Assembly: GCA_008632985.1 (NCBI GenBank)
Contig: QPGO01000057.1
Span: forward strand, 310,001-374,000
Source of the DNA: Psammoneis japonica
Taxonomy: Eukaryota
DNA: 64,000 nucleotides
Direction of reading: 5' to 3'
A model generated the notes under the pieces. The model was not told the DNA's origin. It made no database searches and saw only the letters and a program-made list of their open reading frames with translations. Positions 1 through 54,317 of this stretch are shown here, one piece after another (positions within the stretch are counted from its first letter, which is position 1; each line of letters begins with the position of its first letter). The position numbers and the translations under genes are program-made.

Positions 1-604
1 CTCCCCGTGCCTTGATGTGGGTTGACAGTGCATTGCTGCAGCCCCTGACTCTGTGATTTGTGGTGCAGTTGTGCTGTGCCACAGAGTTCATTTTCCATGA
101 TTTTTGAATTGCCGCTTTGTTTTTTTTTCATGAGCACGTCCATTGCTGTTGGTTGTTGCATCCTCCACAAAGTTTCAGGGTTGCCACAACCAGCGAAATG
201 CCAACAATCCACATGCACCGGCTTTGGGGGGCAGCCGAACCCTTTTGACAGAGATTTTGGGTCTACAACATTGAATGGCACCCCCTTCCTTGGAGGCACC
301 ACTCTCAGTCTTGCTGGGGAGCAAACCCTCATGGCTCTCTGAGGCTGTCTTGATGTTCAGAGGTGGGGGGGCAGCCACAGGCATCCCAGGCCATGTGAAC
401 AACTTTGCAGAAAGACGTCACCTGGGCACAGCTGCAGCTGGCAACCCAGGCAGTTGCTCAAAATGTTCAGAGACAAGAGCAACCTTGTCTGCCATTTGTG
501 GCTGGACTTTTTGAAAAGTGGTGGACAGCAGATGCAAAAAACAAATGAACACTCTTCACCCTTGGACCACTCCACATGGCATTCAAGTTGAGCCGGCTGG
601 TGAG

Positions 605-845
605 GCATTGGCATCTGCTTGAGCTGCCCAGCAAGGTGTTGGCATCCACAAGGTGTTGGCATCTGCTTGAGCTGCCCAGCAAGGTGTTGGCATCCACTTG
701 TTGAGCCACCTTGCATGCCGCAGCATCTGCTTGAGCTGCCCCATTTGAAGTGGCATCACAACTCAAGCTGCCGCATGACATGGCATCAACTTGAGCCACC
801 CAAATGACATGGTGTCAACTTGAACTGCCCCGCATGACATGGCAT
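605..845 (+). repeat. Short tandem repeats (48-bp and ~30-bp units)
   Basis: tggcatctgcttgagctgcccagcaaggtgttggcatccac occurs twice (~609 and ~657), followed by diverged tggcatcaacttgagc-like units. Confidence 0.85.
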
Positions 846-1559
846 TTTCCTGCAGAGTCCATCCCAAAACAAGACCCGGCACAAATTAAGACCCGTCATG
901 GGTTGCAGCACAAAAAGTGTGCAGAATTTTCTTTTGGTCAAAAAATTCGAGAGGCATCGCGTTTGAAAGAGCGTGGCGAGAGCAGTTGATTGCTGCCCTT
1001 TTTACCCCCCAGAAAAATCTTGGCCCTTGCGTGGCGTGGTCTAATCTTCAGTGCTCAAATCACGTGCATTTCCACATGTGGGTCTTAAATCATGACCTCT
1101 GTGTCAGCCTCGGCTTGTCAGACATTTTGGTTCACATGCTGAAACTCATCAACCATTTAGATTTTCAAAAGTCAAGATTTTTTATGACAAGTTCAATGTG
1201 TTCTTTCACATTCAGGCGTGCAATTCCGAAATGCGCAAACATTGTGGCATCTGCATGGATGGAGATCTCAGGTGGGTCTTGATTTGTGATGAACTCTAGA
1301 AACATGGACAAAGATTAAAGGAAAACAAGATGTTGAGAAAACAAAAAATCACATTGAATCAACACAATCCATCAAATGCCGCAGAGTGATTCACCAACTG
1401 AGAATGTGAGATGAAATGACAGCACAATGATGGAAGCAGTTCTCATTCATTTTTGGACTTTGTCTCACCTCTCTTTTCACAGATGCACTCATCAGAGCAA
1501 AATGAATCATGCCATGCAATGGCGTTGTTGTGGGAAAAGTGTTTGGTGGCAAAATCTGG

Positions 1560-1860
1560 CAACGGTTGATGACACTGTCATGGTGGTTTTGGTGGTGGTT
1601 GGCGGTTGGGGGAGAGGGAAATCTGACCTGACCGGCTGTCGTGACATCACATGATGTGGTCCATCCGTGGTGTGCCAGAATCTGACATTGTGGTGGTGAC
1701 ATCATCAGTCACATGGGAACAGTGTGAAACATCATGATGTGCAGCACTGCATGAGCACACAGGGGGGAATCTGACCTTGCATTCTTGTGATGTTGCATGA
1801 CATTTCACCGCTGTGAGCCAGAATCTGATGTTGCGGCCATGACATCACAGCATGCATCAA
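1560..1860 (+). repeat. Diverged ~145-bp tandem repeat
   Basis: aatctgacc at ~1620 and ~1768; gccagaatctga at ~1674 and ~1818. Confidence 0.7.
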
Positions 1861-3619
1861 CACGGGGGAAGTTTCATTGAGGGTGTGCTCATTGAAATGT
1901 CTGGACAGGAACACAACAAAACGTTGCCGTCATTTAAAAAAATGTCTGGTGTGATGTTGCCAAGCAGAGGGACATCAACACAAGGGATTTTTTGGGGGAG
2001 AAGTCACTTGACATGGTGAACCCCTGACATGCAAACCCAACACAAGGGACTCCCTTGAGATCAAGTCCCTTGAAATGGAAAAAACACCCTCAAGCTTTGC
2101 AGTGTCCAGTGAAACCCATGTTTCCTGTGTGGCTTCTCATTTGCTGTCATTTTGTTTGCCACTGGCACCCTGATCTCAAGCCACAGGACACATTTTGCTG
2201 TCTCCATTTGTTGGTGCCCAAGGGTGACAAAGGCTGTTGCCACAGCTTCCCTCTTGTTGCACCTCCACAAACAATGACAAAAACAGTGTGGGAAGGGCTC
2301 AAGCGTTCACAGCACATGTGTGTGTCATGTTTGGCACAGTCAACTGAGGCAGAGAACAAATGCCAGGATGGCACAAAATGAAGCTTGCCATGCAAAGCAC
2401 CCTGACATGGGGGCATTGGGACATGCCTGCGAAACAAGCAAGTTGGCAATCAGAAAGATGTTGCCCACCAGCTTGGCCAGGGATGGCAACAGGTTTTGTT
2501 TGTGCAAGCAGGGCCAGAGTTGCTCAGCTTCTTTGTGGTCTGGAGTGCATTTTGTGCAGTGGGTGCAAAGGCAGGTGTGCACTCTTGTTGCAGCTGCAAG
2601 CACAATGATGTGACACCAAATGCATGCCGCCAGGCTGAGCAGTCTGGCTCAGTGTGCACCAAACTGCCCCAGGCCAGCTGCCAGCTCTGGGTGCTCTCAG
2701 CATGGTGGTGTTCACTTGTCCAAGCTGCACCACATTGGCTTGGAAAGGCTGCACTTGGGGTGGGCAAAGGAGAAAAGAAAACTTTTCAGCTCAGCTGCTT
2801 GCTTTGGAGTTTGCATTGTGAACAAGAAGCTCTTGAGAAAGAACAAGAAGTGGTGGGGTGCTGATGTCACCAGCATTTCTGGTCATGTCCTCTGCACACT
2901 CAACCACTCCTGGCAGGCACAATGTCACTCAGAGCTGCCTTGCTCTTTGAGCTAGAGCTTGTGCTGTTTGAGCTGGGCTGGTGTCATGGGCATTTGCACA
3001 ACCCTCATGGGCATTTGCACAACACACACAAAAAATGATGGTGAAACACTGTTGATTTTGCCGCCACACTTTCCTTTGTTTGGCACTTGGCTGTTGATGA
3101 CACAACAAGATGCCACTGACCCACTGTGTGCCACACAGCAGGCTGGTGGTGTTTTGGCACATTGGCAAAAGTGTGTGAAACCAACCAAGTGCCTTTGGTT
3201 GAGATGAGCAGACTCCCTGTCAAGAGATGCACATGGCAGAACAGATGCACAGGCCCACGCAGTGCCCCAGACCTGACATTTGTGCACAACACAGTCGACT
3301 GGGCCCAAGCAGCACAAAGAGATCAATGCAGGTGAAAATGAACCAGTTGCTCAGGACTTGAACCCACAGACACTTGGCTTCACTTTTTTGATGTTGCGCC
3401 AAGATGCCGTTGGCCTGCTGTGTGCACACATGGCAGGCCAGTGGCACCTCAGTGTAGTGTCGCCAGGTTTTCAGAGTCTGCTCACATTGCCAATTGCCAG
3501 GGCTGCTCCAAACATTCTGAAAAATGCCTCCTCTCCCACTGGCCAGGCCTGCCTGCACTGTTTCTGAATGTTTGAGCTCATCCCACATGTGGAACTTGCT
3601 GTCCTTTTGCACACCCAGT

Positions 3620-4290
3620 GCCCAAATTGATGAAAATGTTGCTGAGAGGAGAAGAGACAAGGCTGCCAAGATTGAGTGCCATGATCCATGATGCCCAAAA
3701 AGATGGCTCACCCCTCCTTCCTTCAAAATCTTTCTGTGCACCACCAAGCACTCAACTCAATGAAGATGTTTTTAGAGAGGAAAAGAGACAAGGCTGTCAA
3801 GACTCAATGCTGCAACAACACCCACTTTGGCATCATTGGTCTTCTTGCCACTCCAGAGATCTTGTGCACCCCAGACAATGCAAGTTCAGTTTGCATCTCT
3901 TTCAATTTTCATTTGAGATTTTTTGCACTGACACTTCCTTTCAACTTCATCCCCACAGCTGGAGCTTGTGAGGACTTTGCTGCAATGTTCCTTGAACATT
4001 TTTCCACACACTCAGCACTCAACTTGACAAAGATGTTGCTGAGAAGAGAAGAAGAGACAAGGCAGCCAAGACTGAGTGCAAGCATGAGACCCAAATGTGG
4101 CTTGTCCCTCCTCTTGCTCCATTTTGGTGTCCACAGTCTTCTTGCCTCTGAGCGAATCTTGTTTTGTGATGTTGCAATTGGCCCTTGCACCTCCAACAGT
4201 GCAAGAAGCCCATTTTGCATCTCTTTCAACTCTTGTTCAAGATTTGTTGCTGACAGCTCTTTCAGCCTCATTCTCACAATGCAGAAATGA
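3620..4290 (+). repeat. Diverged tandem repeat (three copies of a ~55-bp core within longer units)
   Basis: aagagacaaggc(t/a)g(c/t)caaga core in units beginning ~3627, ~3757 and ~4024; ttgcatctctttcaa at ~3891 and ~4216. Confidence 0.75.
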
Positions 4291-5014
4291 AGCCATTGGC
4301 ACTTTGCAACTTCTTTAAAAGATGCTGTCAAAAACAAAGAAAACATTTTTTGAGTGCTTTGGCCAGAGACCCATGAAGAAGACTGCTGGAATTGGCACAA
4401 CTTCTTCCATCTTCCAAGCCTGCTTCTGGCACCAAGCCATCTTCTTCTGGCACTTCTTTGACTTGTGCTGCAGCAGCATCTCTACTCACATCTCTCCAAG
4501 TCCACATTCAATGAATTGCAGCCATTTAAAAATGCAAAGACTGCACCTTGGGAAGGTTCTCCACAATCAATGCATGGGCTGTGTCTCAGCTGAAAATGGG
4601 CAGAGCATGCAATGCAGTGATTGCAACCACACCCAGTCTTTCTGGCCATCAAGAAAAGCTGTGGGTTGACAGATGCCAAGGCTGTCATTCTTGCTTCTGT
4701 TGTTTGTGGGACAGTGCATTCTGAAGTCATTCAAGCTGCACATGAGCAACACTTGGCTCAAGTTGAGTCAAGCAATGTGATGTGCTTCCAGAGGAACAGC
4801 AAAGTCTCTGTGTGATTCTCCATGTTGGAAAGCAAAGAGACCTGCCTCATCTGCATGTGCACCTGGAAAGTGCTGCTTTTGCCAAACAACAGTTGCTCAA
4901 ACACTCTGAGAGACCATTGGTCACCCAGCCAGATGTCAGACATGCAAAAAGCAGAAAAAGCAGGCTGCTGATTTCATCAACATCTGTTCCAGAGTTGTTG
5001 CAACTCTGCAGTTG

Positions 5015-5976
5015 GCACTGGTCCTCTCCAACAGCCTCCGTGGTTGCATTGCACAGTTCCTTGTTAAACAAACAAATTGCTGCACTGGGTGGTGCAAACA
5101 ACCACTTGGTGGCTTTGCCAAACTGTGAGGTGGAGGGAGCTGCATCAGACATTGTTGTGTGCTTTATGGGCTGTGCCGGTCAACACTGCATGGCAGCCTT
5201 GGTTCTTTTGTTGGTTGGCTGGCAGCCCAAATTGCTTGACACTGTTGCACTGGCTGAAAGCTGTGGAGATGCAACCTGGCACTGGTCCAGGGTGCACGGG
5301 AGTGGCCATTGATGAAGAAGCATCTCATCAAAAAACAATGTCGCACATTGAATCCATGGAAGAGGTTGGAGCCAAGCTGTTGTTGGACGGGCAAGGCTGG
5401 GGCACTGATGTCAAAGGTAGCATCTGGGTGGGTCCTGCCATTTTGCCACATTCAAATGAAAAAGACAAGACAATGTGCAAAGAAGTTTTTGGCCATGTGT
5501 GTCTGTCTGTTTGCAACGCATTCACGTGGGAAGAAGTGATTAAGATTAAGAAATTAAAACTCGTTTGGAAATGCAGCATCCATCTGCACAACCAACGGTG
5601 GCAAAATGCGGAATGGTTCACATCGAAATCCCGCGCTTCCATGCTTGTGGTGTCAACATTGGAATTCCAGTTCCTGGGTGTGCAACGCGGTGTGTGGTCC
5701 TGGACTGATTCTCGAAGCTTCCATCGAATGGCACCTGACTTTCCGCGTATCAACTCACGCTGCTTTTTCTCTTCTTACAGGGGGGCGTTCAGTTTTGGTG
5801 GGTTGTACGGGACAAAGTCAAAGTTTGGTGACACAGACATCGCAGGAGATGGCGCGCTTCAATTCTTCACGAGTCGTATCAAGGTGACGAGTCAGTGGCC
5901 AATTGAAAGGCCTGCTGCCGCTCTTGATCATAATGAAGCGGGTACAGATCATGCTAATTTCGCCGGAACCTTGTGG
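5015..5976 (+). pseudogene. ALDH6A1: Methylmalonate-semialdehyde dehydrogenase (ALDH6 family) pseudogene, 3' half
   Basis: Across shifting frames: ALGGANNHLVALP, GCAGQHCMA (GQRCMA catalytic motif), EVFGHV, NAASICTTNGG, VNIGIPVP, then an intron ~5678-5780, then FSFGGLYGTKSKFGDTDIAGDGALQFFT. Several frameshifts; 5' half unrecognisable. Confidence 0.85.
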
Positions 5977-8302: not shown

Positions 8303-10930
8303 AATTTTGCAGGACCATTGGCACTTTGGCTTGCTGCACTTCGTCTTTGCCATCAGAGAATTCTCCAGATTTTAGTGTTCTTTCTGCACAGTCTTTTCCC
8401 GGTGGCAACAGACAATCCCATTTCCCATTTTCGCCATGACAGACGCAGGTCCATCCTTGGAATGAACATTGGGAAAGCTGCTACCTCTGCTGTTGCAATG
8501 AATTAGCTCCAATCATCAAGCTCAACTGGGCTCAAGAGAAAAAGTGTTCAATCTCCTGACTTGAACCCTGTGCTGAGTGGGACTCTGAAAAATGTCCATG
8601 GCAAAGGTGGAAATGTCAAGCCATCAATGAAGTGAGTTCAAGCAGATGGGAAAGGCATGTCATTGGAAGACACCAAAGAGTTGCTCCACATTTGCTGTGA
8701 ACTTGGCACTGGCCTTTTTGACCTTGGGACTGCCCCAATCTGTCGAGGATGTGGATGAGTTGATTCCTGGTTTCACACTTTTGGGAGTACATTTTAGTGC
8801 AGCGCCTCTTGCCATGGCATCCCAAAAAAATTAATTGTGTTGATTCTTCACTTGCCATTGAAAGCAACAATTGAAAAGACTGCAGCATCAGAGCCATCTT
8901 TGAATTTGTCAAAAAGCCAGTTGTTCTGTCTGTGATTTGTCCCTTGACATTTGCTCTGCACGACACCCACCAACAGCAGCCCTGTGCCCCCTGTTGGGGC
9001 TTTCTTGAGCCGCAAAATGTCAACCAGCTGGCAGAGCTTCAGAAACAGCTGCAAACTGGGAAGCTGAAATGTCATCCTCCACTCTTCTTGCCACTGCCAA
9101 GAGGACTCTTGTTGACTGCATTGCACCCAATGGAATGTGCGTGCTGTTGACAAGACATGCACATGATCAAAACCCTGAAAAGGGCAATTTGTCCATGGAT
9201 GCCAATGACAGAAATGGTTCTCTGGGCACTGCCAAGAACAGCAGCACTCATGGCAGTTGCTTCTGGAGATGGCAACCTCAATGTCTTGGACAATGCTGGC
9301 TGTGTGTCAATGTGGCACATCAACCCAGGCGGGAGTCTCTCCAGCCAGCTGCTGGCTGAAGAATCTTGTGTGAAATTTGCGCTGAAAGAGTCTGTCAATC
9401 CATGTGTCAGGGGGTTTTGGTGAACACTGGATGACTTGTCGTCCATTGGGTGCGTGAAATGCACTGGCAAAATCCCCAAATGCACTCATGAGCAGACTTT
9501 TTTTCAGCCAGCAGCTGGCTGGAAACTTCCCCAAAACCAGCACTGCCAAAATGCATGGACCACATCAATTGCTTTTCTCTTGTCACTTGCTGTCATTTGT
9601 GCTGAAAGAATCACACACAGAGAGCCTCATTGTTCAAGCCAAACAAGGTCCAGAGCTGGGACCCATTTGATTGTCAGGGTCAGCTTTGCCAGACAAGGTG
9701 GGCTCAGCACAAGATGCAATTGTTGTCATGCCTGTGAAATGGCACATGGCATCAAATGTGTGTGCCTTTGCCATTGCAAATGTCATCACTGAATGTGTCA
9801 TGGATGACAGCCCACAGTTTTTTTAAAATCCAAGCCGTCTCATGTCCTGGTGGTGGCTTTGCTTGTTGCTTCTGTTTTGCCAATCATTTCCTGATCACCG
9901 CAAGGCATTCAAACGCCATTTCACAAGCGATTGAAAGTCATCAAGTGGCGCGCATGAAAAAACTGTTGAAGTTGGCCATGGTGTGACTTGCTTCTCTCTG
10001 TGACAGCAATGTGGAGGATCACAACTTGGTTGCCTTGCCATCCAAATTGCCCTCAGTTGCTTTTTTGTCCCAGTGTCATTGTCGTCGGGTTCCAGCAGTG
10101 AGGGACCTGCGAGGTGATCATGGGACATTCCTTTGCATCATGCACTCGCCAAATTTCTGTGAGCTGGCACTCCCATCTTGCAGACATGCATTGGAGACCA
10201 GGCATCATTTCCAATTCATGTCCCTGACAGCATGTGAAGTGACAAGGAACTCTCAGTTGCTGCGGTGAAGGTGTTTTCTGAAGTCTTGCTCAAGGAAGCT
10301 GGCACCTGAGCTCTCTTTGGATGACAAAGACTCACTGTTGTCTTTGCCACAAATCTGCAACATGTGCAGACTTTGTTTGTTGGGTCATGAACATCATTTT
10401 TGAAGCAGTTTGTTTTCCGGCAAGCAAGTTTGCACCAACAAAGACTTGATGACAGCTTTGAACAGAAAGCGCTGGCCTCACCTGTGTCCGCGCGTCCTTC
10501 CAAGATAATGCTAAAGTCAATCAAGCTGCGTGTGAACAACACTTAAGGCGCTTTGGGTTGAGTAATGTCACACGCTTCCAGAGGAGTGGCAGAGTCCCAC
10601 AGTAAATGTCCATGTTGAACAGCAAGGAGATTGCTTGCCTGTGCGTGCGCCTGAGAGGGGCTGCTTTCGCTGAGCGACCACTTGATGAACCCATGAGTCC
10701 GTTGGTGACCCGAATAGACATTAGACATGTAGAAATAGGCTGCAGACTTCATCCACATCTATTCCAGAGTTATTTTATCTGTATATATATACGATCGGCA
10801 TTGATTTTGGGTGTGCAACAGCATTGTCCGTGCAGCCTTCAGCGCGCAGTCTGAGCCGGTGGTCGAAATGCTTGCTTGCACGCGGTCGCTTCATGCCAAT
10901 CAACGCAGAGAGCCTTTGCAACTTGGAACT
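8300..10930. mobile_element. Block B: degenerate TpA/CpG-depleted DNA
   Basis: Only a handful of TA in 8500-10500, mostly tttaaa/ttaat/ttag. Spurious Tyr-free ORFs in all frames. Confidence 0.7.
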
Positions 10931-16789: not shown

Positions 16790-19700
16790 TGACCCTCACA
16801 TGCACCTCATCTTATTTTGTGACAACAAACAATCGAAGGCGGGAACCATTGAGTCTACACGGTTCCGGCAATCATGTCTTGTGTTTTTCACCCTGCAAGG
16901 AAAGAGTGCTTGTTGAACACAGCAGTCATCATCAACTGTGTAGCGGGTGCTCTTTTTCTTCCTTGGATCTCGGGGTGGCACTGCCAGCAGGTGGCCTTGC
17001 CTCTCTGTTTCCAGTGCATGGGGCAGCACGCTGTGAGGACACAAAAACAAGAACACATCCAATCATCACCACAGCAATGTCCAACATGATGACAAGTTGG
17101 AGAAAGGGGTGCTTGGCACTTGTGCCCCACAACAGACTTTTCTGTGGTCTCTGAGCTCTTGGACCATGCCAGAAAAGAAGTGAAAAGCAATTGATGCCAA
17201 ATCAGAAGACACTCTGGGAGCCACCCAACAAAAGCTTTTGCATGCTTGCTGACTTGTTTGCCAGTTGGGCTGATGGATGTGTGTGTGCTCCATGCAAGAT
17301 TCTCTTCAAACACAGTGTGGCTGATGTGGCGTGCCATTTTCTTGGAGGGCATGAAAAGCTTGGCCACAAATGTTGGAGCATCGGGGTGCAAGGCAGTTTT
17401 GGGAGGACAGACAGACAACATTGCAGCAAAAGATTGCTGACTGTTGTGGATGATGTCAAGAGTGATGCCCACTTTTTGGCTTCTGCACCAGGGCGGCACT
17501 GTGATGCATTGGCAACAACAAGGTGACAGCGCTGGACATGTGTTTGCAACCCATGTGGCGAGCTCTTTGGAGTTGATGAGACTGATGCAGATTGGTTGTT
17601 GAGCTATGATGTTCCAACACAGAAGCCAAAAAGGCCAGCTGGAAAGTCAAGAGGAATCCAAGGAAGAGCTGGAGCTCCTTGAGAGAAATCCAAGACTTGG
17701 TTGATGCAAGCAATCATGGCATTCAAGCTTGCTGAACCAACAAGAGTCATTGCACATTTCATTGCTCCAGCCAAAGGAGTGTCTGGTGAAGAAACAGTCT
17801 CTGGAGGGCCTTGCCATGAGCAGCTGCAAGGGTCCCTGCTGAAAGAGGGCACAGCAAGGTTGTGTCAGGCCAAGAGAAACATCAGCGTGGGCAAAGACAC
17901 AACTGAGCATGGAAGTCTAAAAGACTTGAAGGAGTGGGTGCACAATGCCATTGTCAAGTTGGGTTGACTGGCAGATGGATGCACAGAAACCATGAGAAAA
18001 AGAACTGAGTGCATTGGAAGAATGCTCAGGCCAGAGATGCAAGCTCTGGTGTCTCTGAGGCAATGGAGCAGTTCAATCCAAAGGAGCCAGAGCATTCATT
18101 GGGAGCAACCACATTGGAGAAAGACAAGGCAGTCTGGGAGAAATGATGCAATCACTGCATGGAACAGGGCTGATCTTCAGGCTGCAGAAGGTGAAGGCAT
18201 TCCACTCATTTGTGGGATTGTGCATGAAAGCTGCACATGACAAGATTGAACGAACAAACAAGCTTGCAAAAGTCACAAAGGAGTGGGGCACAGCGGTGCT
18301 GCTGGGAATTCTCAAGTTGATCTTGTTCAGTGCAAATGAGAGACTCCACTTGCATGTTCGGGCTGTCAAGGCATGGAGGCAGTTGGTGCTCATTCATCAA
18401 GAAGATGAAGGAGAGGTGCTTCAAGATTGCTGTGATTGGTTTGCAAGGGCTGTTGGGATGGCAGAAGGATCCCACTGCTGCAGGATTGTCCTGGAAGAAA
18501 TTGCCAAGAAAGAAATTGGGTTCAGTGCAGACACTGAAGATGCCCAGGAGAAAGGAGAAAGAGAGGAACAAGCTGTGAGCTGTTTTGCCAACAGAAGAAG
18601 GTGTGCACCAACAGAAATGTTGGCATGCCTTTTAAAAAACCTGTGCTGACAGTTTACACTGGGGGTGGACACCGCAGCTGTGTGGACATGTGCAGGACCA
18701 GCAAAAACCCTGAGGGTGAAAGTTTTGCACAACAAGAGAAGAAGGAACAAACCAAATGCTCTGGAAATGTGACAAGGTTGAGCATGCAAAGAAGGAACAT
18801 CGTTTGCTCAACAATGATGATGACCACTCAATGGCAGAGTTTGAGGATGTGATCTGTGGGTCCAATCAAAGCTGTCAGTGTGTTGTTGGATGGCACAGCA
18901 TTCAACCACAGTGTGGTGGTTGAGGTCAGTCAATTGATGGCTTTTCAGAAGTCAGAAGGAGTGCGGCATTGGAACATCAGGGTGCAAGGCAGTTTTGGGA
19001 GGACAGACAGACAGACAATGTTGCAGTGAAAGATTGCTGACCATTGTGAATGACATTGAGAGTTTGTGTGTGTAGACTCTCCATGAACACACAGGTTTTG
19101 TGCTCACTCAAGGGGCAACAGTGCCGCTCAGATGTGTGTTTGCAACCCACGCAATGAGCTTTGGAATTGGCAAAACTTCTTTGGGTTGGCTGGCAAGCCA
19201 TGACATTCCAACAACAAAAGACTTGTGTTGCTTCTCTCCCACTGCCACGTCATTGTCAAGACTGCCGATGATGCACTTTGCTCCTTTTTGACCACAGCAC
19301 TGCAGCTGTGCTGCTGACACTGGCCAAGGTGCAAGAACAAAGCTGCCGTTGCTCCTTGCATGCAACCATGCAACAGCATGAGCAAACAAGTGCGATTTGC
19401 AGAAAAGCTGGCGTGGGTTCAGGCTTGCAAGCCAACGAAGCTTTCCCCACCCAGCCCACTTGCTTGGCTGCACCTCGATGCCCTTGGAGCAGCAGTTGCC
19501 AGAAGTTCACAAAAAAGACTCATGGGAAAGGATTTCAATGCCCCCCAAACGAGCATGCCGGTGCATGGAAACATGGGGCTGCATCAATTTGCTGCCAGAG
19601 GGAAATGTGCTGCCTCCCTTGCACACCTGGTCTGCCGATCACACAGGGGCCCACAAAAGTGACACAGGCCAGCAGGTGGTGGTGGCTTGCACGCTGGCGC

Positions 19701-19800
19701 TTGTTCCCAACAGCAGACCTGCAAATGACCGTGAGAAGAGATTCCCAACCTCCTTGGTGTTTGCTTTTGACCTCTTGTTAAGCAATGATGTTGCCATCGT
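16790..19800. mobile_element. Block C: degenerate TpA/CpG-depleted DNA with an internal direct repeat
   Basis: About six TA sites in 16900-19780; direct repeat 17371-17463 / 18967-19063. Confidence 0.7.
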
Positions 19801-24558: not shown

Positions 24559-25039
24559 GGGCATAGGGCGTGTGAACTGTTGGAATCATCCCGGATCTGT
24601 TTCTCATATTTCCATGTTGCATGGACACCTAATCTTATACTTTAACAATTTACGTACGTTAACTAACAACTGACTGTGTGGATTGATAGCCAATAGCTTT
24701 TCCATTTCATTTAACAACTCTGATTCCTCCATTGCTTCCATCTCGAGAAGCTTGGGAAGCTTCCGCGCCGTGACAAGTTCCGACACCGTTGCCACATGAA
24801 CATTAATAAGTTGACACAATCCGTCCATTTCCGTCAACTTAACTTCAAGTAAATCATCAATCAATGATTGTCTGATAATTCTTTTTTTGTATGACGTCTT
24901 TCAGCCAGTCAGTTCGCTTTCTACAGAGGCGCTTGTCGGGTTTGTCATCATTGTAAATTCACAAATTCCGTCTTTGATTAGAGTCACCTCTGGAACAATT
25001 AGGAACACCACCACTGTCCAATGGTCGTAGGTCCCAGCA

Positions 25040-26600
25040 TATCAGGGCCAAAAAGAACCTTCCATTGAACATTGTCAACCACAACAAAAAAGAGATCATG
25101 AGGCCCCAGCTTGCTTTTGGTGTCATCACAAGCTTTTTTGATGAGTCGACTCTGCTTGTTGTCTCCGAGCAGTGCTTCAAGACAATGCCACACAAAAAGG
25201 TGAGCATAGCATGTCACACACACCTGCCTTTGAATGACATTCCTGCAAAAATGTTGGCACTTGACCTGCTGCTCCTGCTTCCACTTGTGGGTTGTGAGTT
25301 CTTTGGATGAAATCGGGTGCCAAACATGGAGCCAAAAGGTGTGACTGCAAAGAAGCATCTCTTTCCAAGTTTGCAGTGCATTGCAGTCAAGGTTCCTGTT
25401 ACAAGGAAAAACTGGATTTGGTGGCTCTGGGCTCTCATTGTCTTCAACATTCTTGGTTGATGACGCTTTGACAACCACTTCATGAAAGGCCTGAAACAGC
25501 TTCTGAAACTCAAGACAAACTGACAAATCAATGTTGTCTTTGCCAATGGGAGTCTGCATCAAAGCAATCTCTTCATGTCTCACTCTCTTGTTGTCACAGT
25601 GCTTGCTTAAACTCAAAACCCCCAAAAATGTCAAGCGCAAAAACCACCATCCCCAGACAGTTTGCAAAAACGTGGCAGTGTCCTTTCTGAATCAAGATGT
25701 TGCTGTTGTTTCCATGCTGACAGATTAAAACTTGGACCTTTTGCTGGTTTGCATTGCACACTGGTGAAGCCAGCATCATGCTGCACAAACTCCATGCCTT
25801 CACAACAATAACAAAACAAACTGATCAGCAAATCTTGCGAAATGCATTCTTGGCCACCTTTTCGACAAGTCACCCGCAGTGGCACAAAACACACTGCCGA
25901 CCAGTTTTGTGGACCAACTTGCCTTTGGAGCAGTCAAATCTTCATGGAATGACAGTCAAAGTAATTCCCACAAACCACATGACAATGACAGCGAACATGG
26001 GGATTGCAGTGGTGTTGGTGGCTGCTCCAAGGATGACCAAGATGGGGGCACAGGACCAGGCCATTGGGTCAGTGCTGGGAAGGGAGCAACAACACTCAGG
26101 GTGACAAGCAGTGATCAAACGGCCAGCATGGATCTGCCAGCCACAATGCTGGCAGTTCCTATTAAGCAATGTCTTTAGCAGAGGTCTTGAGCCTCTTTGC
26201 ACTGCAAGTCAATCACGATGTTGCCAATGAGCTTGACTTGCTGGACGTTGTTGATGAAGAAGAGCAGCGTGCATTTGTGCGGTCCTTTGCTGCCAAACAC
26301 ATCATCCCTTGCAAAACAGGCTGTGAATGCGAGCATGACACCTGGCCACCTTCCACTGCAATTCATCAATGAAAATGGGCCACTCGCAGTCATTTGTTTT
26401 TTTGTGTTGCATGCACCATGGGGGCACGATGTGAAAAACACATTCGTCAAGCAAAGAAAGCAAAACAACGGATCCCCTTGACGAAGCGGCAGCAACAACA
26501 ATGAATCCCTCTCTGGTCGATGAAGCAATGTTTTTGTGGGTTGGCACACCGTCTTTGCCAGCATCCAACAATCCTTGTGGACACCCCTCTGCTCTCTATT
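25040..26600. mobile_element. Block D: degenerate TpA-depleted DNA (relic of a large ORF on the minus strand)
   Basis: No TA in 26178-26596. Minus-strand protein-like text (LGPHDLFFVVVDNVQWKVL) continues into less mutated DNA at 24604-25000. Confidence 0.65.
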
Positions 26601-41691: not shown

Positions 41692-41944
41692 GGTGGACCG
41701 TGAACTGACGAGCAATTCAGAAATTGTGAGAGCCTTCGAACGAGAAGAGATTCTGTCTGCAATTGAGGCAACTTGGTACAAACCACGTAGAAATCTACGT
41801 GTCATCAGCCGTTATCGCGTTGAGTTGATGTTCGCAGAAAGTTTCGCGATAGTTATTTTGGCGCAGTTGTCGTACCTATCGATCTTAGTCTATCGTGCTT
41901 TTAACATTTTCCGTCTCAAACGTAAACATCTGTGCTTCACTTTA

Positions 41945-44166
41945 TTTTCACTCCATTCCTGTTGCAGATGGCCAACCTTGACCTGCTGAAGATCATCTGG
42001 GTGGAAGAAAAAGTGGATGGGTCTCTCTTGTCTTCCTGCCTGAACACCGCTGCTGCTGGCGATCAGCAACTTTGGCTCAAATCACATCAAAGCTTGGGCT
42101 TGTTGGGTTCGCACCAAGCCAACGACTCCAGCAAGTGGTCAAAGCAACAGCTGGAGCTCTGCAAAGAACTCTTGCAACTTGCTCTGATCATCAGCTGCAC
42201 CTTCAATCTCAAGTGGGTCTTGCCCCCCAAAGCAAGCAGTGCTTGCCCACAACAAACTGTCGCCAGCATGGCGCTGAGCACGCACAGCAATCAAGATGGG
42301 AGAAGCATCTGGACCTTTGTGAGCTCAATGCAGACAAATGTCCTCATGTTGTGGAGGCTTGGGTTCCTCAACTGGCTGGATGAACAGAGCACTTGTGCCC
42401 AATGAATCATCAAGGGCTGTGTCCCTTGTTGTCTTGCTGGACACAAGACAGCATGCCAAGCTCAAGAGATGGGCTGGCATTGCACAACACAAAACAGCTG
42501 CACATCACCCACCTGAATGAGGCACTGGATGAAAAAAAATGTGGACTTTCCCATGGCACACCTTGCTGAATTGAGGCAATGGAAGAAGCAACCTCTCGCC
42601 TGTGAGCTCTGTTGCTTTTGGGTCAGGGCAATTGGGCTGGGTTTGTTGTTGCAGCAGAGGGTGCTTCAAAGCTGAAGAGAGAGGCTGTGCACGATTGGCA
42701 AAAACCTTTTGCCAGAGAGACTGCATCTCAGTGCCTTTGTTGCAACACAAGAACATTTGAAGGGTGCAGCATTCATTGGTTTTTGCGCTTTCCTGAAAAA
42801 GAGCAGTGACCGAACAGATGTCAAAATTTTTGGGGGGAGAAACTGCGAGACTGAGAAATGACAAACACAAAAGATGCATCTCTCCACACACAGGCACATG
42901 AAAAAGACACCCAACTGTGAGAAACTCAGCCTGGTCTCCTCACTCAAGTCAAATCTGAAAGAGTTTGAATGTCTCCACACAACCATTTGGATCAAAATGT
43001 CCCTCATTCTTGTGTCAAAAAATTTCTCATGCATCAAAATGCTGCAACCTCCCACTTTGATGGCACCAGCCTCTTTTGGATGGTTGTCTCCATTGTGTGT
43101 CTGGACTTTTTTGGGAGACACAGCAAGAAGAAGGCTTGTTGCACCCCTGTGCATCAGACATGGGGGCAATTTGACTGGGGCTCGCTGGAATCATGTGGCA
43201 TGGACAACACCTGAAGAATTTTCCATGCAGGTTCAACCTGCACTGGCATTTGGGCCCTGGCACATTTAAATTGGGTCAGCTGCACTCCACACTGGCCTGC
43301 CAAAATGTCCATGCAGCCATGCCTTTCTTTCCCTCACTGCACACCACACAAACAATTTGGGCGTGCTCCCATTTTCACAGCCAGCTTTTGTTTCATTCTT
43401 TCAATGTGAGATTTTGATTCTTGGCTCCCCTCTCGTTTGTCCAGCGGCTCACTTCATTGTTCACTCATGGACAATCATCACCCACTCATCAACCCAGAAT
43501 TGTTTGGAGACCACATTCCATTGCACTCCTCTGCACCCTTGCTTGTCCTCCTCTTGTGCATCTCCTTTGCACCTCTTGAGGCCTTGTTTGTGCCAACCTT
43601 GGTTCTTTTTTGCCTTCTGTCCTTTCCCAATGCTGCTCTTTTTTGTGGAAATGAGTCTCTGTTCCTTCAGCTCTTCCTTGGATTTCCTGCACATTTGCAC
43701 CCACTTGCCCCAGCTGTTCTCCAATGCCAACAGACCAAATGCCAACTTGTTTGAGCAACATGTCGATTGGAGCCAATGATTCCACAGCTTCTTTCTGACA
43801 ATGACGGGCAGGAAGTGGCAGTTGCAGCAGTTGTGCACCTCTGTGTTGTCATCCCTTCCATCCAGCATGTCCTCCAAAGATGGCGTGTTTTCCTTGTTGC
43901 AACCCAGCCTGTGCCTGTTTGTCTGCGATGCAAAACAAATCAACACGGGTGAGTGTTTGTTGTCAGAGCTCTGTTCATTTTTGTCCTTGCAGTGGTGCTC
44001 ACACAAGAACTCATCCTTGTGTTCTCCATGGGTGTTGTTTCTCTTTCTTGTCACTTGTCTTTTTGCCAGGTGCAATTCTGCGCAAGCGCCAGCAGGATTG
44101 TCCCGTGTGAGAGTGTGGTGGCACGCCAACACCTCCTCGGGCACTTTGGGACGTCAGGCAGTTGCG
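41945..44166. mobile_element. Block E: degenerate TpA/CpG-depleted DNA
   Basis: A single TA (tttaaa, 43267) in about 2.3 kb. Confidence 0.75.
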
Positions 44167-44320
44167 CCATCATGAGGATCATCATGACCACGATCATCAT
44201 CATGAGGACCATCATGAAGCCTATCATTAGAGAATACAGTTGCTGCGTAACGAGTAGTATACATGCTTTTGTATTTTGTGGTTGTGCTGTGAATGGTAAT
44301 TGAACTGAGAAACGAGATGC
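44167..44320 (+). repeat. Direct repeat copy 2
   Basis: ccatcatgaggatcatcatgaccacg...gcctatcattagagaa...gttgctgcgtaacgagtagtatacatgcttttgtattttgt matches 39868 onward. Confidence 0.9.
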
Positions 44321-51429: not shown

Positions 51430-54200
51430 GTGCTGAAAATCATGGTTGGGAACAACAATGTGATTGAAACAAAAGATCTGGCCACAATTTGTTCCACCTT
51501 AATGGCAATGCACTCCCTTTCCCTGGAGGATGATCTGTGGCCCCTTCCTTGTCTTTGCAAGCGCGACTCTTTCCTTTCACCAACCAACTTCTCCAGATGT
51601 TGGATTTTTGGAAGAAAAGTCAGAGTTGGGCATTTTGTCCCCTGTGGCCACATCGGCAGTGATGCCAACATGCCAATGATCACTTGCTTGGAGCTCCTTG
51701 ACATGTGCTGCATGTGCACCAAAGTTTGGATGCCTTTCATGGAGTGGAAGTGGCGGTCAAAGTTGAGAGGGGCTTTGCAGCTGCAATGGCACCCTTGACT
51801 TTTCTGATGAAAGATGAAAGGAAAGGGAGCATGACTCCACTGCAGGAATGAATGTTCCATCAGTTTGATGTGCGAAGTGACCCCAGCAGATCCATGTTCA
51901 TTTTCAAGGCATGACCCTGCCTTGTCTTTCATTTCATGGGAGCCTTTTGCCAAGGCAAGCATGCCCAGTTTTGTTGTCAAACTCGCTGATGGCACAGTCC
52001 ATTCAAGTGAAAAGGTGGATCCTGTTTCAAAACAAATTGGCACTGCCCATGATGGATTGTGAGAGTTGAAATCTTTTTGCACCCTTGCCTTCCACCAGAT
52101 CCCCACCTCCAAGTGACAAGACACAACTCAGAAGAAGCAGCAAAGAAACAAGGGGTTGCTGTGCTTCACCTTGTCAAACACATTGGCTGGTCAGCAGAAA
52201 CAAATTGAGTTGCACTTTTGTGCTCATGATTTTTGCTCATGAACTGATTGTGCAACTTGTTGAATTTCAAATGATTTGTTTGCCAGATCATGGCTCAGCT
52301 GCACCAACTCTTCACTTGCCAGAAAGCAGCTGTTCACTGGGGCTTTAAAGAAGAGAGCAACTCCAGAGGGATTTCCAGGTGTGGTTGGTCCTCATTGCCT
52401 TTTGCTGGTGTGCCGCAGATGACATGTTTTTTGCACCAACAATGTGTGCCAACCTTTGCAGAGGTCCAGCAAGGCTGTGTGTTCTGCTCAAAAAGAGGAG
52501 TGTTGCCCATCAAAAGCAACCTGACAGAGGACTGCTCACAACCATTCAGAAATTGTGAGATCTCCTCACAATGCAAACACATGGGATGCCACTGCCTTTT
52601 TCCCTCTCTGTTGCAATGCATTGGTTGCATGTGTCAAGCACTTTGCATTTGCCTCTGTGAAGAATGCAACATGTGCTTTCCACTCAAACCTGCAGAGACT
52701 CATGAAAAGTGCCATTTCTGACATCCTGTGACATTGTGTTGATGTGATCCTCCTGACCAAAACCTGTCAATGCACAATGTAGATTTGATCACACACATGC
52801 AAGAACTTGCACAATGAACCCAGCTCAAACAAGACTTGATGTCCTTCCCCATACATTGCTTTCCTCTGCCTGTGCTTGAACTTGACCCAGCCATGCTTGG
52901 CTCTTGCCAACTCTCTTGCTGGCTTGCACCCACCAGCATGCCAAGTTTGCACTCTTCCACAAAGGGCAAACAGCCCTCACAGAGTTGCTGCATTTGACTC
53001 TTGAGAATGGCACCTGTGCATGCCAGAGAACATTTGGTGCAAGTCATTCTGCTCAAAAGGCCAGCTGGGCAGCTGGACAAGCTGTGCTGCAACCCACTGT
53101 CTGAAACAAATGCTGCTGGGCATGCATGGCTCTCTCCCATCCTCAGCAACTTTCTGCTTTGCAATTTTTTTCTCGTTGCCTTCTGATTTTCAATGATGGC
53201 TGAAGTTGGTCTCGTTGCTCTTGTTTTTCCCAGCACCTTGCTTCAACCACCACCTGCCCAGGTTTGCCAACTTTGTTTTGAAATGTTGTGAACATTGTTT
53301 TCTTCACTGGGCTCACATTGTCTGCAGGAAGCTAAAACGTGCTGTGTTGCACACAAAAACAATCTGGTTTTCTCTCCTCATGCAATGGAGAGCACACTTG
53401 CCCTTCTTTGAGAATGAAGAAAAAGAAAGGCCTTGCCAAGACCCAACATGCTGAGAATGGATGGCTGTCATGCTGCGGTGCCATTGCTCTCAGGAAGTTT
53501 GGCCTCTGGAAGCAACAACACCTGCCATTTCAACAAAAACACCCATGATGTGCAGTCAGCAATGCTTCAAATCTTACCTTGCCAAAGCCCTTGCAGCCTG
53601 CTGCAAGTGCTTGTGACAGCTGACAAGCAGTCTCTTGTTTTCACCTTCCATGGAGCCAGGCTCTGCACATGAATGATGTCATAAAAAGGTGCTTTTGAGT
53701 TCCTGGCTCTCATCACATTCCCACAAAGGCAGCTGCACTGACGCACCTCTCAAAATGACAAAGATTGCTCAACAAAGTCTCAGCCCACAGCAAGAGGGAT
53801 GTGGGGACTCCAGCTGCATTTCCTGCCCACGGAGCAAACAGGCATGTGTCTCTGTGAACACACAGCAAAAAAGTTCTTGAAGGGGGGCCCCTCGCAGCAC
53901 TGGACTGTGACACAAAAGTTTTGCTTTGTCATGCGCTGCATGTTGCAAGCATGCATTTCTGCTTGTGACTTTGGCAGCATCATGTGTCATTTTGTGGTTC
54001 AATTTTTGGGCCATCCACTCAACAACTTTTTGACTTTTTTGCAGCACCACTCTCAAATGTCTTGAGAGCAGTGCAGGGTAGGTGGATTTTTGAAAATGTT
54101 GAGTGTTGAGAGGCACAATTGCACCACAAATTGGTTGTCGAACTGAACTCTAATTCTGCTGAGAAGGCATGATGACACAACCCTAACCTACAGTGCCATG
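51430..54200. mobile_element. Block F: degenerate TpA/CpG-depleted DNA
   Basis: About ten TA in 2.7 kb; very CA/TG-rich; Tyr-poor ORFs in all frames. Confidence 0.7.
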
Positions 54201-54317
54201 ATACAACACACAATACACATGCCTAAAGGTGCTTTAAGCGATGATTACACAACAGACTAGCGCAAGAGTCTACGAGCATGGGAAAAGGTCGTTACAGACC
54301 CGGAACTGAGGACAGAG

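What the first reader, a model, noticed from the sequence alone, without database searches (positions are those of the whole stretch)
17371..19063. Direct repeat pair with six CA<->TG swaps in ~95 bp: cleanest internal footprint of the mutator
17371-17463 vs 18967-19063 differ by TG/CA, aaCAtt/aaTGtt, gCAaa/gTGaa, cTGtt/cCAtt, gaTGt/gaCAt and tCAag/tTGag. They also differ by one CG/CA, two G/A transitions and a 4-nt indel, with no transversions. Similarity continues at ~17531-17575 / 19125-19170 with more swaps. Nearly all divergence is at pyrimidine-purine steps, so these sites mutate far faster than the rest.
Basis: seen in the sequence. Interest (0 to 1): 0.8.

Follow-up and report, generated by a model that had tools for sequence, protein, structure and literature searches.

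The report
Diatom repeat pair records CpG/TpA purge
Two copies of a 250-base repeat in a diatom genome differ almost only by CA/TG swaps, because they lie in a stretch of DNA where nearly every CG and every TA has been mutated to TG or CA, and loss of TA in this way matches no hypermutation process I know of or found in print.

Summary
17371-17463 and 18967-19063 differ by 15 substitutions, all transitions. Twelve of them form six adjacent CA<->TG swaps, and there is one 4-nt (GACA) indel. Read as purine/pyrimidine, the homology runs over about 250 bp (17369-17625 vs 18965-19220).

The copies look like the terminal repeats of a 1.84-kb non-coding, multi-copy element (17371-19213; TG..CA ends, 5-bp flanking duplication ACAAA).

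The element lies in one of seven sharply bounded intergenic islands of a pennate-diatom nuclear genome, 25% of the window. There TA o/e is about 0.03 and CG about 0.1, TG/CA are nearly doubled, and GC content and total pyrimidine-purine steps are unchanged.

31-mer contigs built from a sequencing run's reads reproduce the island exactly at the depth of its flanks. It is not an assembly artefact.

The TA arm is real. In an island copy, 13 of 14 TA and 11 of 11 CG of its unpurged homologue are TG/CA. In a pseudogene crossing an island edge, 3 of 3 conserved Tyr became His/His/Cys inside the island.

The ancestral state of the six swap sites cannot be read from this window.

The mechanism of the TA arm is unknown. 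Eight literature searches found no description of it.

The parts
16861..19790 (.). Island 3: intergenic domain almost free of TA and CG, lying between two divergently oriented genes (15828-16562 on the - strand, 20003 onward on the + strand). About 250-340 bp of normal-composition DNA remains next to each gene.
   Evidence: In 16901-19750 there are 6 TA, 30 CG, 332 TG and 308 CA. The TA-poor span is 16861-19790 and the CG-poor span 16951-19240. Edges are sharp to tens of bp (last TA/CG at 16866, next at 16941).
17366..17370 (+). Left copy of a putative 5-bp target-site duplication (ACAAA).
   Evidence: It is identical to 19214-19218. Two random island 5-mers match with P = 0.0023, before allowing for the choice of boundary.
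17371..17619 (+). Repeat copy A, an LTR-like terminal repeat (249 bp) running from TG to CA.
17406..17417 (+). (GACA)n run. Copy B (19002-19017) has one more unit, which is the 4-nt indel.
17620..18966 (+). Internal region of the element (1347 bp). No protein family is recognisable, so the element is non-autonomous or degenerate.
   Evidence: no Pfam hit in any of six frames read through stops; no protein homologue of ORF 18059-18649.
18946..18966 (+). Purine-rich run (CAGAAGTCAGAAGGAGTGCGG) directly upstream of copy B. It sits where a polypurine tract would be; this is weak evidence.
   Evidence: sequence read directly.
18967..19213 (+). Repeat copy B, an LTR-like terminal repeat (247 bp). 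It starts CA, which is a swap of copy A's TG, and ends CA.
19214..19218 (+). Right copy of the putative target-site duplication (ACAAA).
4707..5025 (+). Purged copy, inside island 1, of a ~300-bp repeat whose other copy is unpurged. This comparison gives the direction of change.
   Evidence: 252 bits in purine/pyrimidine space; 203 identical, 76 transitions, 20 transversions.
10501..10808 (+). Unpurged copy of the same repeat, with normal composition, starting about where island 2 ends.
   Evidence: Its 11 CG are all CA/TG in the island copy. Of its 14 TA, 13 are CA/TG there.
4998..5904 (+). Methylmalonate-semialdehyde dehydrogenase pseudogene. The N-terminal half is missing and there are several frame changes. 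It crosses the right edge of island 1 at about 5500-5515.
   Evidence: In the island part, 3 of 3 conserved Tyr became CAT, CAC and TGC, and 4 of 5 conserved Arg became CAC or CAA. Outside the island, Arg is kept at 3 of 3 positions.
1..5770 (.). Island 1, with a half-depleted patch at about 850-1250.
8401..10510 (.). Island 2.
24941..26600 (.). Island 4.
41931..44220 (.). Island 5.
51431..54260 (.). Island 6.

Best explanation
The two repeats are the terminal direct repeats of a ~1.84-kb non-coding, multi-copy mobile element (LTR-like or TRIM-like, 17371-19213). It inserted into an intergenic, presumably silenced, domain of a pennate-diatom nuclear genome.

In such domains a transition-only process acting on the DNA in place converts both self-complementary YR dinucleotides, CpG and TpA, into TpG/CpA on either strand at random. 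Base composition and the purine/pyrimidine pattern stay intact.

The two repeats were identical when made and still carried normal numbers of CG and TA. Each such site then decayed independently in each copy. Where the copies resolved to opposite strands they now show a CA<->TG swap; where they resolved alike they look conserved.

Shown:
- the repeat pair, its transition-only YR-focused divergence, the islands and their sharp edges;
- that the change happens in place;
- that TA as well as CG is the substrate, and that the outcome is GC-neutral;
- that TG and CA outcomes are not clustered by strand.

Inferred:
- the CG arm is deamination of 5-methylcytosine in methylated, silenced chromatin;
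- the TA arm is enzymatic, through modification or deamination at the palindromic TpA in the same chromatin. Candidates are TET/JBP-type oxidation of thymine to 5hmU/5fU that mispairs with G, adenine deamination, or error-prone patch repair. Nothing here decides between them.
For: Pair and element:
- Searches give the counts listed under the observation check.
- Element hallmarks are TG..CA ends, flanking ACAAA/ACAAA and a purine run before copy B.
- Contig depth is about 60-65 in the flanks, including the purged flanks 16872-17339 and 19212-19913. It is 140-750 only in bins 17340-19211. The element is therefore a dispersed family and the flanking island DNA is single copy.

Islands:
- Seven islands cover 16,200 of 64,000 bp.
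- YR steps make up 0.2381 of dinucleotides in islands and 0.2424 in the rest.
- CG+TA falls from 0.0941 to 0.0123 while CA+TG rises from 0.1483 to 0.2258.
- GC is 48.4% in islands and 47.3% in the rest.

Real DNA: contigs of run X1 match 17388-17770, 17840-18338 and 18312-19009 with 0 differences at depth 59-65.

Direction of change and the TA arm:
- At 10501-10808 (normal) vs 4707-5025 (island), CG became CA 7 times and TG 4 times (11 of 11). TA became CA 7 times, TG 6 times and TC once (13 of 14).
- In the pseudogene, across 114 columns conserved in at least 6 of 7 diatom orthologues, Tyr became His, His and Cys (3 of 3). Arg became His or Gln at 4 of 5. Outside the island Arg is kept at 3 of 3.
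- At island margins (2,680 bp) TA o/e is 0.05 but CG o/e is 0.47. In cores the values are 0.04 and 0.12.

A transition-specific process rather than loss of the dinucleotide by any route:
- 24 of 25 changes at CG/TA sites in that pair are transitions.
- The arms of the purine/pyrimidine palindrome at 3389-3462 differ by transitions at 14 of 37 positions and by no transversion.
- Two repeat pairs in normal DNA show 7:6 and 13:7 ts:tv and 0 swaps among 31 shared TG/CA steps.

No strand tracts: the runs test on the order of TG and CA gives z = -0.36 to 1.45 in the seven islands.

Fresh-insertion model against flux model: P = 0.46 against 0.0003.

Organism: the best named relatives of the window's glutathione reductase are diatoms (Seminavis robusta 85%, Entomoneis, Cylindrotheca).

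Background: diatoms methylate transposable elements at CG through DNMT5a, and some carry DNMT4, a relative of fungal RID of unknown function (PMC9998398, passages read).
Against: - The ancestral state of the six swap sites was not determined, because no outgroup copy was available.
- The LTR reading rests on short signals. The 5-bp duplication could be chance (about 0.002 per boundary choice, with several choices possible). No primer-binding site or gag/pol was found. A tandem or segmental duplication with period about 1596 bp is not excluded.
- Transitions are also frequent at non-YR positions of island pairs: 65 of 307 against 84 of 282 at YR positions. The process is therefore not strictly confined to CG/TA, or the islands are simply old.
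- All alignments beyond the first 93 bp were found with transition-tolerant methods, which inflates ts:tv.
- No methylation, chromatin or expression data were available, so 'silenced, methylated' is an inference.
- The best DNA holder (X1) may be the sample the window was assembled from. It excludes assembler error but is not an independent individual. Its library type is not on record.
- The copy at 10501-10808 is probably not pristine. 13 of its 51 TG/CA steps (43 of them still TG or CA in the island copy) are swapped there.
Confidence: 0.62

Rival explanations
1. Equilibrium flux only. The two copies were already TA/CG-free when duplicated. Swaps arise because ordinary transitions turn TG/CA into short-lived CG or TA, which then decays to either TG or CA.
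For: Over the whole 250 bp, the swap fraction (14 of 48 steps that are TG or CA in both copies) is not far from the non-YR transition rate (22 of 121). The unpurged/purged pair also shows 13 swaps at sites where the unpurged copy has TG or CA. Some flux must therefore occur.
Against: In the clean 93 bp the non-YR transition rate is 2 of 47 but swaps are 6 of 23 steps. P = 0.0003 under this model.
Confidence: 0.15
2. Ordinary 5mC decay only. The islands are methylated transposon relics that lost CpG, and the lack of TA is an inherited property of the elements or results from selection, not from mutation of TA.
For: CpG decay in methylated repeats is well established, and diatoms methylate transposable elements at CG (PMC9998398). 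Residual CG is slightly richer in G/C-flanked contexts (88 of 150), which I recall, without a call to support it, as the usual context bias of 5mC deamination.
Against: 13 of 14 TA of an unpurged homologue are TG/CA in the island copy. 3 of 3 conserved Tyr codons of a host-gene pseudogene became CAY or TGY inside the island. TA is more depleted than CG, and stays depleted in margins where CG is half retained. The mass balance of YR steps holds. Replacement is by transition at 13 of 14 TA sites, which is not the mix expected if any TA-removing change were selected.
Confidence: 0.04
3. A RIP-like, duplication-triggered defence. Repeated DNA is recognised by homology and hypermutated, with leakage into neighbouring single-copy DNA.
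For: The damage is transition-only, bounded by domain, and centred on repeats (depth). Single-copy flanks and a pseudogene are affected, which from memory resembles the leakage of RIP into adjacent single-copy DNA. Some diatoms carry DNMT4, related to RID (PMC9998398).
Against: One copy of a ~300-bp duplicate is unpurged, though it may be below a length threshold. RIP as known is C-to-T only, prefers CpA and makes DNA AT- and TpA-rich. Here TA is destroyed and GC is unchanged. Whether this species has DNMT4 could not be tested, since no genome is held.
Confidence: 0.15
4. Artefact: base-calling or assembly errors at modified bases turned real CG/TA into TG/CA.
For: Both dinucleotides are palindromic and plausible modification sites. 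Swaps between copies could in principle come from a random choice of strand.
Against: 31-mer contigs made directly from reads reproduce the island with 0 differences, at the same depth as the flanking genes. A modification read differently from the two strands would split every site into two read populations, and no single full-depth contig mixing TG and CA would result. Transitions at non-YR sites, transversions and indels between copies and the amino-acid changes are ordinary evolutionary divergence.
Confidence: 0.03
5. The two repeats are not LTRs but the overlap of a tandem or segmental duplication (period about 1596-1600 bp). The rest of the explanation would be unchanged.
For: Spacing is constant at 1596-1600 bp. 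There is no primer-binding site and no coding capacity. The alignment can be carried a few bases past the proposed ends.
Against: TG..CA termini, matching 5-bp flanks and a purine run before copy B. The raised read depth ends at the proposed element ends.
Confidence: 0.3

Closest known systems
Methylation-driven CpG decay of silenced transposable elements (5mC deamination; vertebrates, plants, methylated repeats generally)
   Same: CG becomes TG/CA on either strand at random. It is confined to silenced repeat-rich DNA, and gene-proximal DNA is spared.
   Different: There is a second arm, at least as strong, that removes TpA (o/e about 0.03-0.05). The outcome is GC-neutral. Depletion is far deeper than the CpG o/e of about 0.2 that I recall for vertebrates. 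The TA-free zone extends beyond the CG-poor zone.
Repeat-induced point mutation (RIP) of ascomycete fungi; RIP-like TCG hypermutation in basidiomycetes (PMC3318451 and PMC2621366, seen as search listings and abstracts only)
   Same: Transition-only hypermutation that riddles repeats and spills into neighbouring unique DNA. It erases recognisable coding capacity.
   Different: RIP is C-to-T only, prefers CpA, and creates TpA- and AT-rich DNA. Here TpA is destroyed, A:T-to-G:C changes balance G:C-to-A:T changes, and one member of a duplicate pair is untouched.
Two-phase somatic hypermutation of immunoglobulin genes (AID deamination, then error-prone Pol eta synthesis at WA motifs); recalled, not from a call
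   Same: It is a two-armed mutator in which C:G damage is coupled to A:T-to-G:C changes, with TA as a hotspot.
   Different: Somatic hypermutation uses WRC and WA contexts, also hits AA, gives many transversions and is confined to a locus. Here AA is not depleted and the changes are transitions.
LTR retrotransposon derivatives without coding capacity (TRIM/LARD-type elements)
   Same: Terminal direct repeats of about 250 bp, TG..CA ends, a 5-bp flanking duplication, a short non-coding interior, and many copies.
   Different: No primer-binding site was recognised. Termini and interior are heavily mutated. No autonomous partner was identified.
Thymine oxidation by TET/JBP enzymes (5hmU, base J); neomorphic TET2 mutants that oxidise T near 5mC (PMC11804724, one passage read)
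   Same: It is a possible single chemistry for both arms, since 5-methylpyrimidines (5mC and T) would both be substrates. That paper's discussion notes hmU formation in hypermethylated regions and at TpA.
   Different: This is purely an analogy. No such enzyme, modification or T-to-C outcome was tested here.

Membership tests
LTR retrotransposon derivative (TRIM/LARD-like) | Two terminal direct repeats in the same orientation | tested here: met
   17371-17619 vs 18967-19213: 202 bits in purine/pyrimidine space against at most 78 in shuffles, and blastn E = 6e-22.
LTR retrotransposon derivative (TRIM/LARD-like) | TG...CA termini of each repeat | tested here: inconclusive
   Copy A runs from TG to CA. 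Copy B starts CA, which is a swap of TG, and ends CA. TG and CA are so common in islands that this is weak evidence.
LTR retrotransposon derivative (TRIM/LARD-like) | Target-site duplication flanking the whole element | tested here: met
   ACAAA at 17366-17370 and at 19214-19218. The chance match per placement is 0.0023, and several placements were possible.
LTR retrotransposon derivative (TRIM/LARD-like) | Primer-binding site after the 5' repeat and polypurine tract before the 3' repeat | tested here: inconclusive
   A purine-rich run is present at 18946-18966. No tRNA-complementary site was recognisable after 17619, and no tRNA gene in the window is available for comparison.
LTR retrotransposon derivative (TRIM/LARD-like) | gag/pol coding capacity (autonomous elements only) | tested here: not met
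   No Pfam family in six frames of 16801-19901 read through stops. The element is therefore non-autonomous or degenerate.
LTR retrotransposon derivative (TRIM/LARD-like) | Multiple dispersed copies in the genome | tested here: met
   Summed contig depth is 140-750 in bins 17340-19211 against about 60-65 in the flanks. 164 contigs were laid, mostly 85-95% alike. The other copies could not be read.
Repeat-induced point mutation (RIP) | C:G-to-T:A transitions only, leaving AT- and TpA-enriched DNA | tested here: not met
   GC is 48.4% in islands against 47.3% in the rest. The TA fraction is 0.0030 against 0.0402. TA is converted to CA/TG.
Repeat-induced point mutation (RIP) | All copies of a duplicated sequence are mutated | tested here: not met
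   10501-10808 keeps 11 CG and 14 TA while its homologue 4707-5025 has none at those sites. At about 300 bp the repeat may be below a recognition threshold.
Repeat-induced point mutation (RIP) | Dependence on a RID/DNMT4-type methyltransferase and on a sexual cycle | not testable with these tools
   No genome is held for this window. DNMT4 occurs in some diatoms with unknown function (PMC9998398).
5mC-deamination CpG decay | CG becomes TG/CA in the affected DNA | tested here: met
   11 of 11 CG sites. 4 of 5 conserved Arg codons became CAN. CG o/e is 0.12 in island cores.
5mC-deamination CpG decay | Cytosine methylation present on the affected DNA | not testable with these tools
   No methylation data were available.
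5mC-deamination CpG decay | Other dinucleotides change only as a consequence of CpG loss | tested here: not met
   TA is lost independently and more completely: o/e is 0.05 in margins where CG is 0.47.

The most novel reading that the evidence does not exclude
Diatom silent chromatin carries a dedicated enzymatic genome-defence or heterochromatin process that erases both palindromic YR dinucleotides, CpG and TpA, by transitions. It might be one 5-methylpyrimidine chemistry acting on 5mC and on T, or a paired C and A deamination. It would be a GC-neutral counterpart of fungal RIP that is triggered by chromatin domain rather than by duplication, and whose TpA arm is a new kind of targeted A:T-to-G:C mutagenesis of DNA.
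Probability: 0.35. Interest if true: 0.9.

Novelty: new variant of a known kind. Interest (0 to 1): 0.8.

Why it matters
Targeted hypermutation of repeats is known as RIP, which is fungal and C-to-T only, and as passive CpG decay. I recalled no process, and found none in print, that removes TpA by transitions.

Here TA loss is about as complete as anything seen for CpG, is bounded to tens of bp, and reaches further than the CpG loss. If it is enzymatic, it points to an unknown DNA modification or editing activity at TpA in diatoms. That would bear on several things:
- diatom epigenetics;
- how transposons and neighbouring genes are inactivated (a host-gene copy is being eroded across an island edge);
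- repeat annotation, because ordinary similarity searches miss these repeats while purine/pyrimidine-coded searches find them;
- possibly natural A:T-to-G:C DNA editors.

The repeat pair is useful because its two copies started identical. It gives a clocked, internally controlled record of the process.

Tried and rejected
- Whole genome of the window: not held.
- Third copy inside the window: a transition-tolerant scan of both strands with the whole element scored 59 at best, against 52 for a reversed-query control and 231 for the true pair.
- Metagenome scans with an exact 31-mer of the repeat, and with a Y/R-degenerate version: 0 matches each.
- Protein homologues of island ORF 18059-18649: none at E <= 0.001.
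- Pfam on 7 island ORFs and on six read-through frames of 16801-19901 and of 1-5501: nothing except the aldehyde-dehydrogenase fragment.
- tRNA and Rfam scans of the window: 0 hits.
- Tandem Repeats Finder: nothing in island 3.
- Sequencing runs: no RNA holder listed, so nothing can be said about expression.
- Earlier findings of this scan: four look-ups, all empty.
- Literature: eight full-text searches found no description of a joint CpG+TpA purge or of RIP-like mutation in diatoms or algae. Subscription-journal papers are not in that library.
- Strand-coordinated deaminase tracts: rejected by the runs test.
- Selection against TA/CG with an ordinary mutation spectrum: rejected, because 24 of 25 replacements are transitions and the YR-step total is conserved.
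- Foreign or viral origin of the islands: rejected, because a host-gene pseudogene and a homologue of normal DNA are converted in place.
Full report
**1. The observation**

The region was read directly and the repeat finder reported the pair in two pieces with spacings of 1600 and 1596 bp. With the 4-nt gap placed in the (GACA)n run, 17371-17463 and 18967-19063 give 93 aligned columns. There are 15 differences, all transitions. Twelve of them form six adjacent CA<->TG swaps.

The pair is the only blastn hit of 16000-21000 elsewhere in the window (E = 6e-22). Six or more adjacent pairs among 15 random positions of 93 occur with P = 0.0004. The transition rate is 13 of 46 at YR-step positions against 2 of 47 elsewhere (p = 0.0018).

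**2. The repeat is longer than it looks**

I recoded the window as purine/pyrimidine, which hides transitions. The pair then aligns over 17369-17619 vs 18965-19213 at 202 bits. Twenty local-composition-preserving shuffles gave maxima of 64-78 bits.

A transition-tolerant alignment gives 174 identical, 57 transitions, 12 transversions and 27 gap columns. By segment:

| Segment | YR steps | Same | Swapped | Half-decayed | Other |
|---|---|---|---|---|---|
| 17371-17463 | 23 | 16 | 6 | 1 (CG/CA) | - |
| 17464-17538 | - | - | - | - | aligns poorly: 20 gap columns, 8 transversions |
| 17539-17619 | 20 | 12 | 5 | 3 | - |

These extended alignments were found with transition-friendly rules, so their ts:tv ratios are upper estimates.

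**3. What the repeats belong to**

- Copy A runs from TG to CA. Copy B starts CA, a swap of TG, and ends CA.
- The 5 bp before copy A (ACAAA, 17366-17370) equal the 5 bp after copy B (19214-19218). A purine-rich run precedes copy B.
- Contigs of a public run that holds 95% of the region's sampled words were laid on 15000-22000. Depth is about 60-65 over the genes and over the outer parts of the island. It rises to 140-750 only in bins 17340-19211, which are the proposed element's limits. The extra contigs are mostly 85-95% alike and match in short pieces.
- No protein family is recognisable in any frame, and the longest internal ORF has no homologue.

I read this as a 1.84-kb non-autonomous, LTR-type (TRIM-like) element of an old, diverged family. 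A tandem duplication with period about 1596 bp is the alternative, at about 0.3. In either case the two copies were identical when made, which is what matters for the argument below.

**4. The setting**

The window is nuclear DNA of a pennate diatom. Genes are intron-poor, with ordinary eukaryotic families. The best named relatives of its glutathione reductase are Seminavis robusta (85%), Entomoneis and Cylindrotheca.

Dinucleotide profiles show seven discrete islands: 1-850, 1251-5500, 8401-10500, 16901-19750, 25001-26200, 41951-44150 and 51451-54200. Together they cover 16,200 of 64,000 bp. In them TA o/e is 0.00-0.2, CG is 0.02-0.5 and TG/CA are 1.6-2.1 per kb bin.

Edges are sharp to tens of bp. 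For example, the last TA/CG is at 41943 and the next at 42048; another pair is 51429 and 51500.

Island 3 lies between two divergently oriented genes and leaves 250-340 bp of normal DNA next to each.

**5. It is real DNA**

Contigs built from 31-mers of the run's reads match 17388-17770, 17840-18338 and 18312-19009 with 0 differences, at depth 59-65, equal to the flanking genes. A modified base read differently from the two strands would give two read populations at every site, not one full-depth contig that mixes TG and CA.

The run may be the assembly's own sample. It excludes assembler or polishing error but is not an independent individual. It does differ from the window at a few sites, one of which is TA (window) against TG (contig) at 16942, inside the island.

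**6. The change is by transitions, in place, and hits TA as well as CG**

(a) Mass balance:

| Quantity | Islands | Rest of window |
|---|---|---|
| YR steps, fraction of dinucleotides | 0.2381 | 0.2424 |
| CG | 0.0093 | 0.0539 |
| TA | 0.0030 | 0.0402 |
| CA+TG | 0.2258 | 0.1483 |
| GC content | 48.4% | 47.3% |

(b) A ~300-bp repeat has one copy inside island 1 (4707-5025) and one in normal DNA at the edge of island 2 (10501-10808). It scores 252 bits in purine/pyrimidine space. All 11 CG of the normal copy are CA (7) or TG (4) in the island copy. Of its 14 TA, 13 are CA (7) or TG (6). So 24 of 25 replacements are transitions.

(c) A methylmalonate-semialdehyde dehydrogenase pseudogene crosses the right edge of island 1. 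I used 114 columns conserved in at least 6 of 7 diatom orthologues.
- Inside the island, the 3 conserved Tyr are now CAT, CAC and TGC (His, His, Cys).
- Inside the island, 4 of 5 conserved Arg are CAC or CAA.
- Outside the island, Arg is kept at 3 of 3 positions and one in-frame Tyr is kept.

The island edge therefore cuts through one formerly continuous gene copy. The domain, not the identity of the sequence, decides what is purged.

(d) Other island repeats show ts:tv of 3.4-10.5 and 2-14 swaps. Two repeat pairs in normal DNA show 7:6 and 13:7 and no swap among 31 shared TG/CA steps. The two arms of a 74-nt palindrome at 3389-3462, compared position by position, differ by transitions at 14 of 37 positions and by no transversion.

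(e) The order of TG and CA along each island is random (runs-test z = -0.36 to 1.45). There are no strand-coordinated tracts.

(f) TA-poor spans are larger than CG-poor spans at most edges. In 2,680 bp of such margins TA o/e is 0.05 while CG o/e is 0.47. In cores the values are 0.04 and 0.12. Margins of the opposite kind total only about 300 bp. The TA arm is therefore at least as strong as the CG arm and is not its by-product.

If the islands are near equilibrium, the frequencies imply two ratios:
- TA decays about 38 times faster than it is regenerated from TG/CA.
- CG decays about 12 times faster than it is regenerated.

This is my arithmetic, and it rests on the equilibrium assumption.

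**7. How the swaps arise**

The two repeats were identical at birth. Suppose they then carried the normal share of CG+TA among YR steps, which is 39%, and each such site later resolved to TG or CA independently in each copy. About 20% of YR steps should then be swapped, plus a little from later flux. Observed values are 6 of 23 and 5 of 20 in the two well-aligned segments.

The alternative is that the copies were already purged, and swaps arise only through new, short-lived CG/TA made at the background transition rate. In the clean segment that predicts about 4%, and gives P(>=6 of 23) = 0.0003.

The element was thus probably 'fresh' when it inserted and was purged afterwards.

Some flux also occurs. 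13 of the 51 TG/CA steps of the unpurged copy at 10501-10808 (43 of them still TG or CA in the island copy) are swapped there. Transitions at non-YR positions are also common in island pairs (65 of 307).

A consensus of other genomic copies at 18525 (table 7) differs from the window over 30 nt by 3 swaps, 4 single transitions and 1 transversion (my reading).

**8. What remains open**

- Which of the six sites were CG and which TA cannot be told. No third copy is in the window, no genome is held, and the metagenome scans were empty. From the window's normal CG:TA ratio, all six being CG would have a probability of about 0.03. That is an inference, not a measurement.
- The mechanism of the TA arm is unknown. 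I favour an enzymatic modification or deamination at the palindromic TpA in silent chromatin:
  - thymine oxidation of the TET/JBP kind, giving a base that mispairs with G;
  - adenine deamination;
  - error-prone repair patches seeded by frequent T:G mismatches.

  None of these was testable here.
- The CG arm is most simply 5mC deamination. Diatoms methylate transposable elements at CG through DNMT5a, and some carry DNMT4, a relative of fungal RID with unknown function (PMC9998398, passages read).

**9. Comparison with known systems, and novelty**

- CpG decay shares the CG arm but not the TA arm.
- RIP shares the transition-only riddling of repeats. But RIP creates TpA and AT-richness, whereas here TpA is destroyed and GC is unchanged. 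One member of a duplicate pair is also untouched.
- Eight full-text searches found no description of a joint CpG+TpA purge, nor of RIP-like mutation in diatoms or other algae. Papers in subscription journals are outside that library, so prior description cannot be excluded.

I rate this a new variant of a known kind (repeat- or heterochromatin-directed transition hypermutation) with an arm that has no known counterpart.

Noticed in passing
window 3389-3462 and 3098-3164: Two palindromes, each compared with its own reverse complement. 3389-3462 is perfect in purine/pyrimidine space (74 nt: 46 identical, 28 transition, 0 transversion positions). 3098-3164 is nearly so (67 nt: 36 identical, 28 transition, 3 transversion). 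They lie about 294 bp apart inside island 1, within a set of degenerate ~130-400-bp repeats at 3094-4280. They look like former perfect hairpins or inverted repeats eroded only by transitions.
   Followed up: partly
window 4998-5904: A methylmalonate-semialdehyde dehydrogenase pseudogene. The N-terminal half is missing and there are at least four frame changes. It is joined at about 5020 to the ~300-bp repeat 4707-5025, so the gene copy may have been truncated by that insertion.
   Followed up: partly
window 1301-1870, 9911-10510, 19241-19790, 26241-26600, 43881-44220: Island margins where TA is gone (o/e 0.00-0.04) but CG is only partly depleted (o/e 0.33-0.57). The two arms are spatially separable.
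   Followed up: yes
window 16942: The window has TA at 16941-16942. The run's full-depth contig has TG. This may be a segregating or strain difference of exactly the TA/TG kind, inside the island. A second island difference, 17190 A>G, is not at a YR step.
   Followed up: no
islands, all: TGCA (242) outnumbers CATG (171). ApT is lower and GpC higher than in the rest of the window (0.053 against 0.066, and 0.074 against 0.059). Surviving TA is enriched in TTAA (14 of 48). These may be secondary context preferences of the process, or of what it started from.
   Followed up: no
window 39867-40011 and 44166-44313: A near-identical duplicate (132 of 145 aligned bases identical) of a His/Asp-rich coding repeat (CATCATGAGGAC units). 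One copy sits exactly at the right edge of island 5. Both copies have normal composition.
   Followed up: partly
window 850-1250: A patch inside island 1 with only about half-depleted CG/TA (20 sites in 360 bp). It may be a younger insertion or a protected spot.
   Followed up: no
window 57983-60070 and 56253-58106 (- strand): A RecG-like helicase (wedge, DEAD and Helicase_C domains) appears fused or adjacent to an RNase_T-type exonuclease domain in overlapping long ORFs. This is unrelated to the finding.
   Followed up: no
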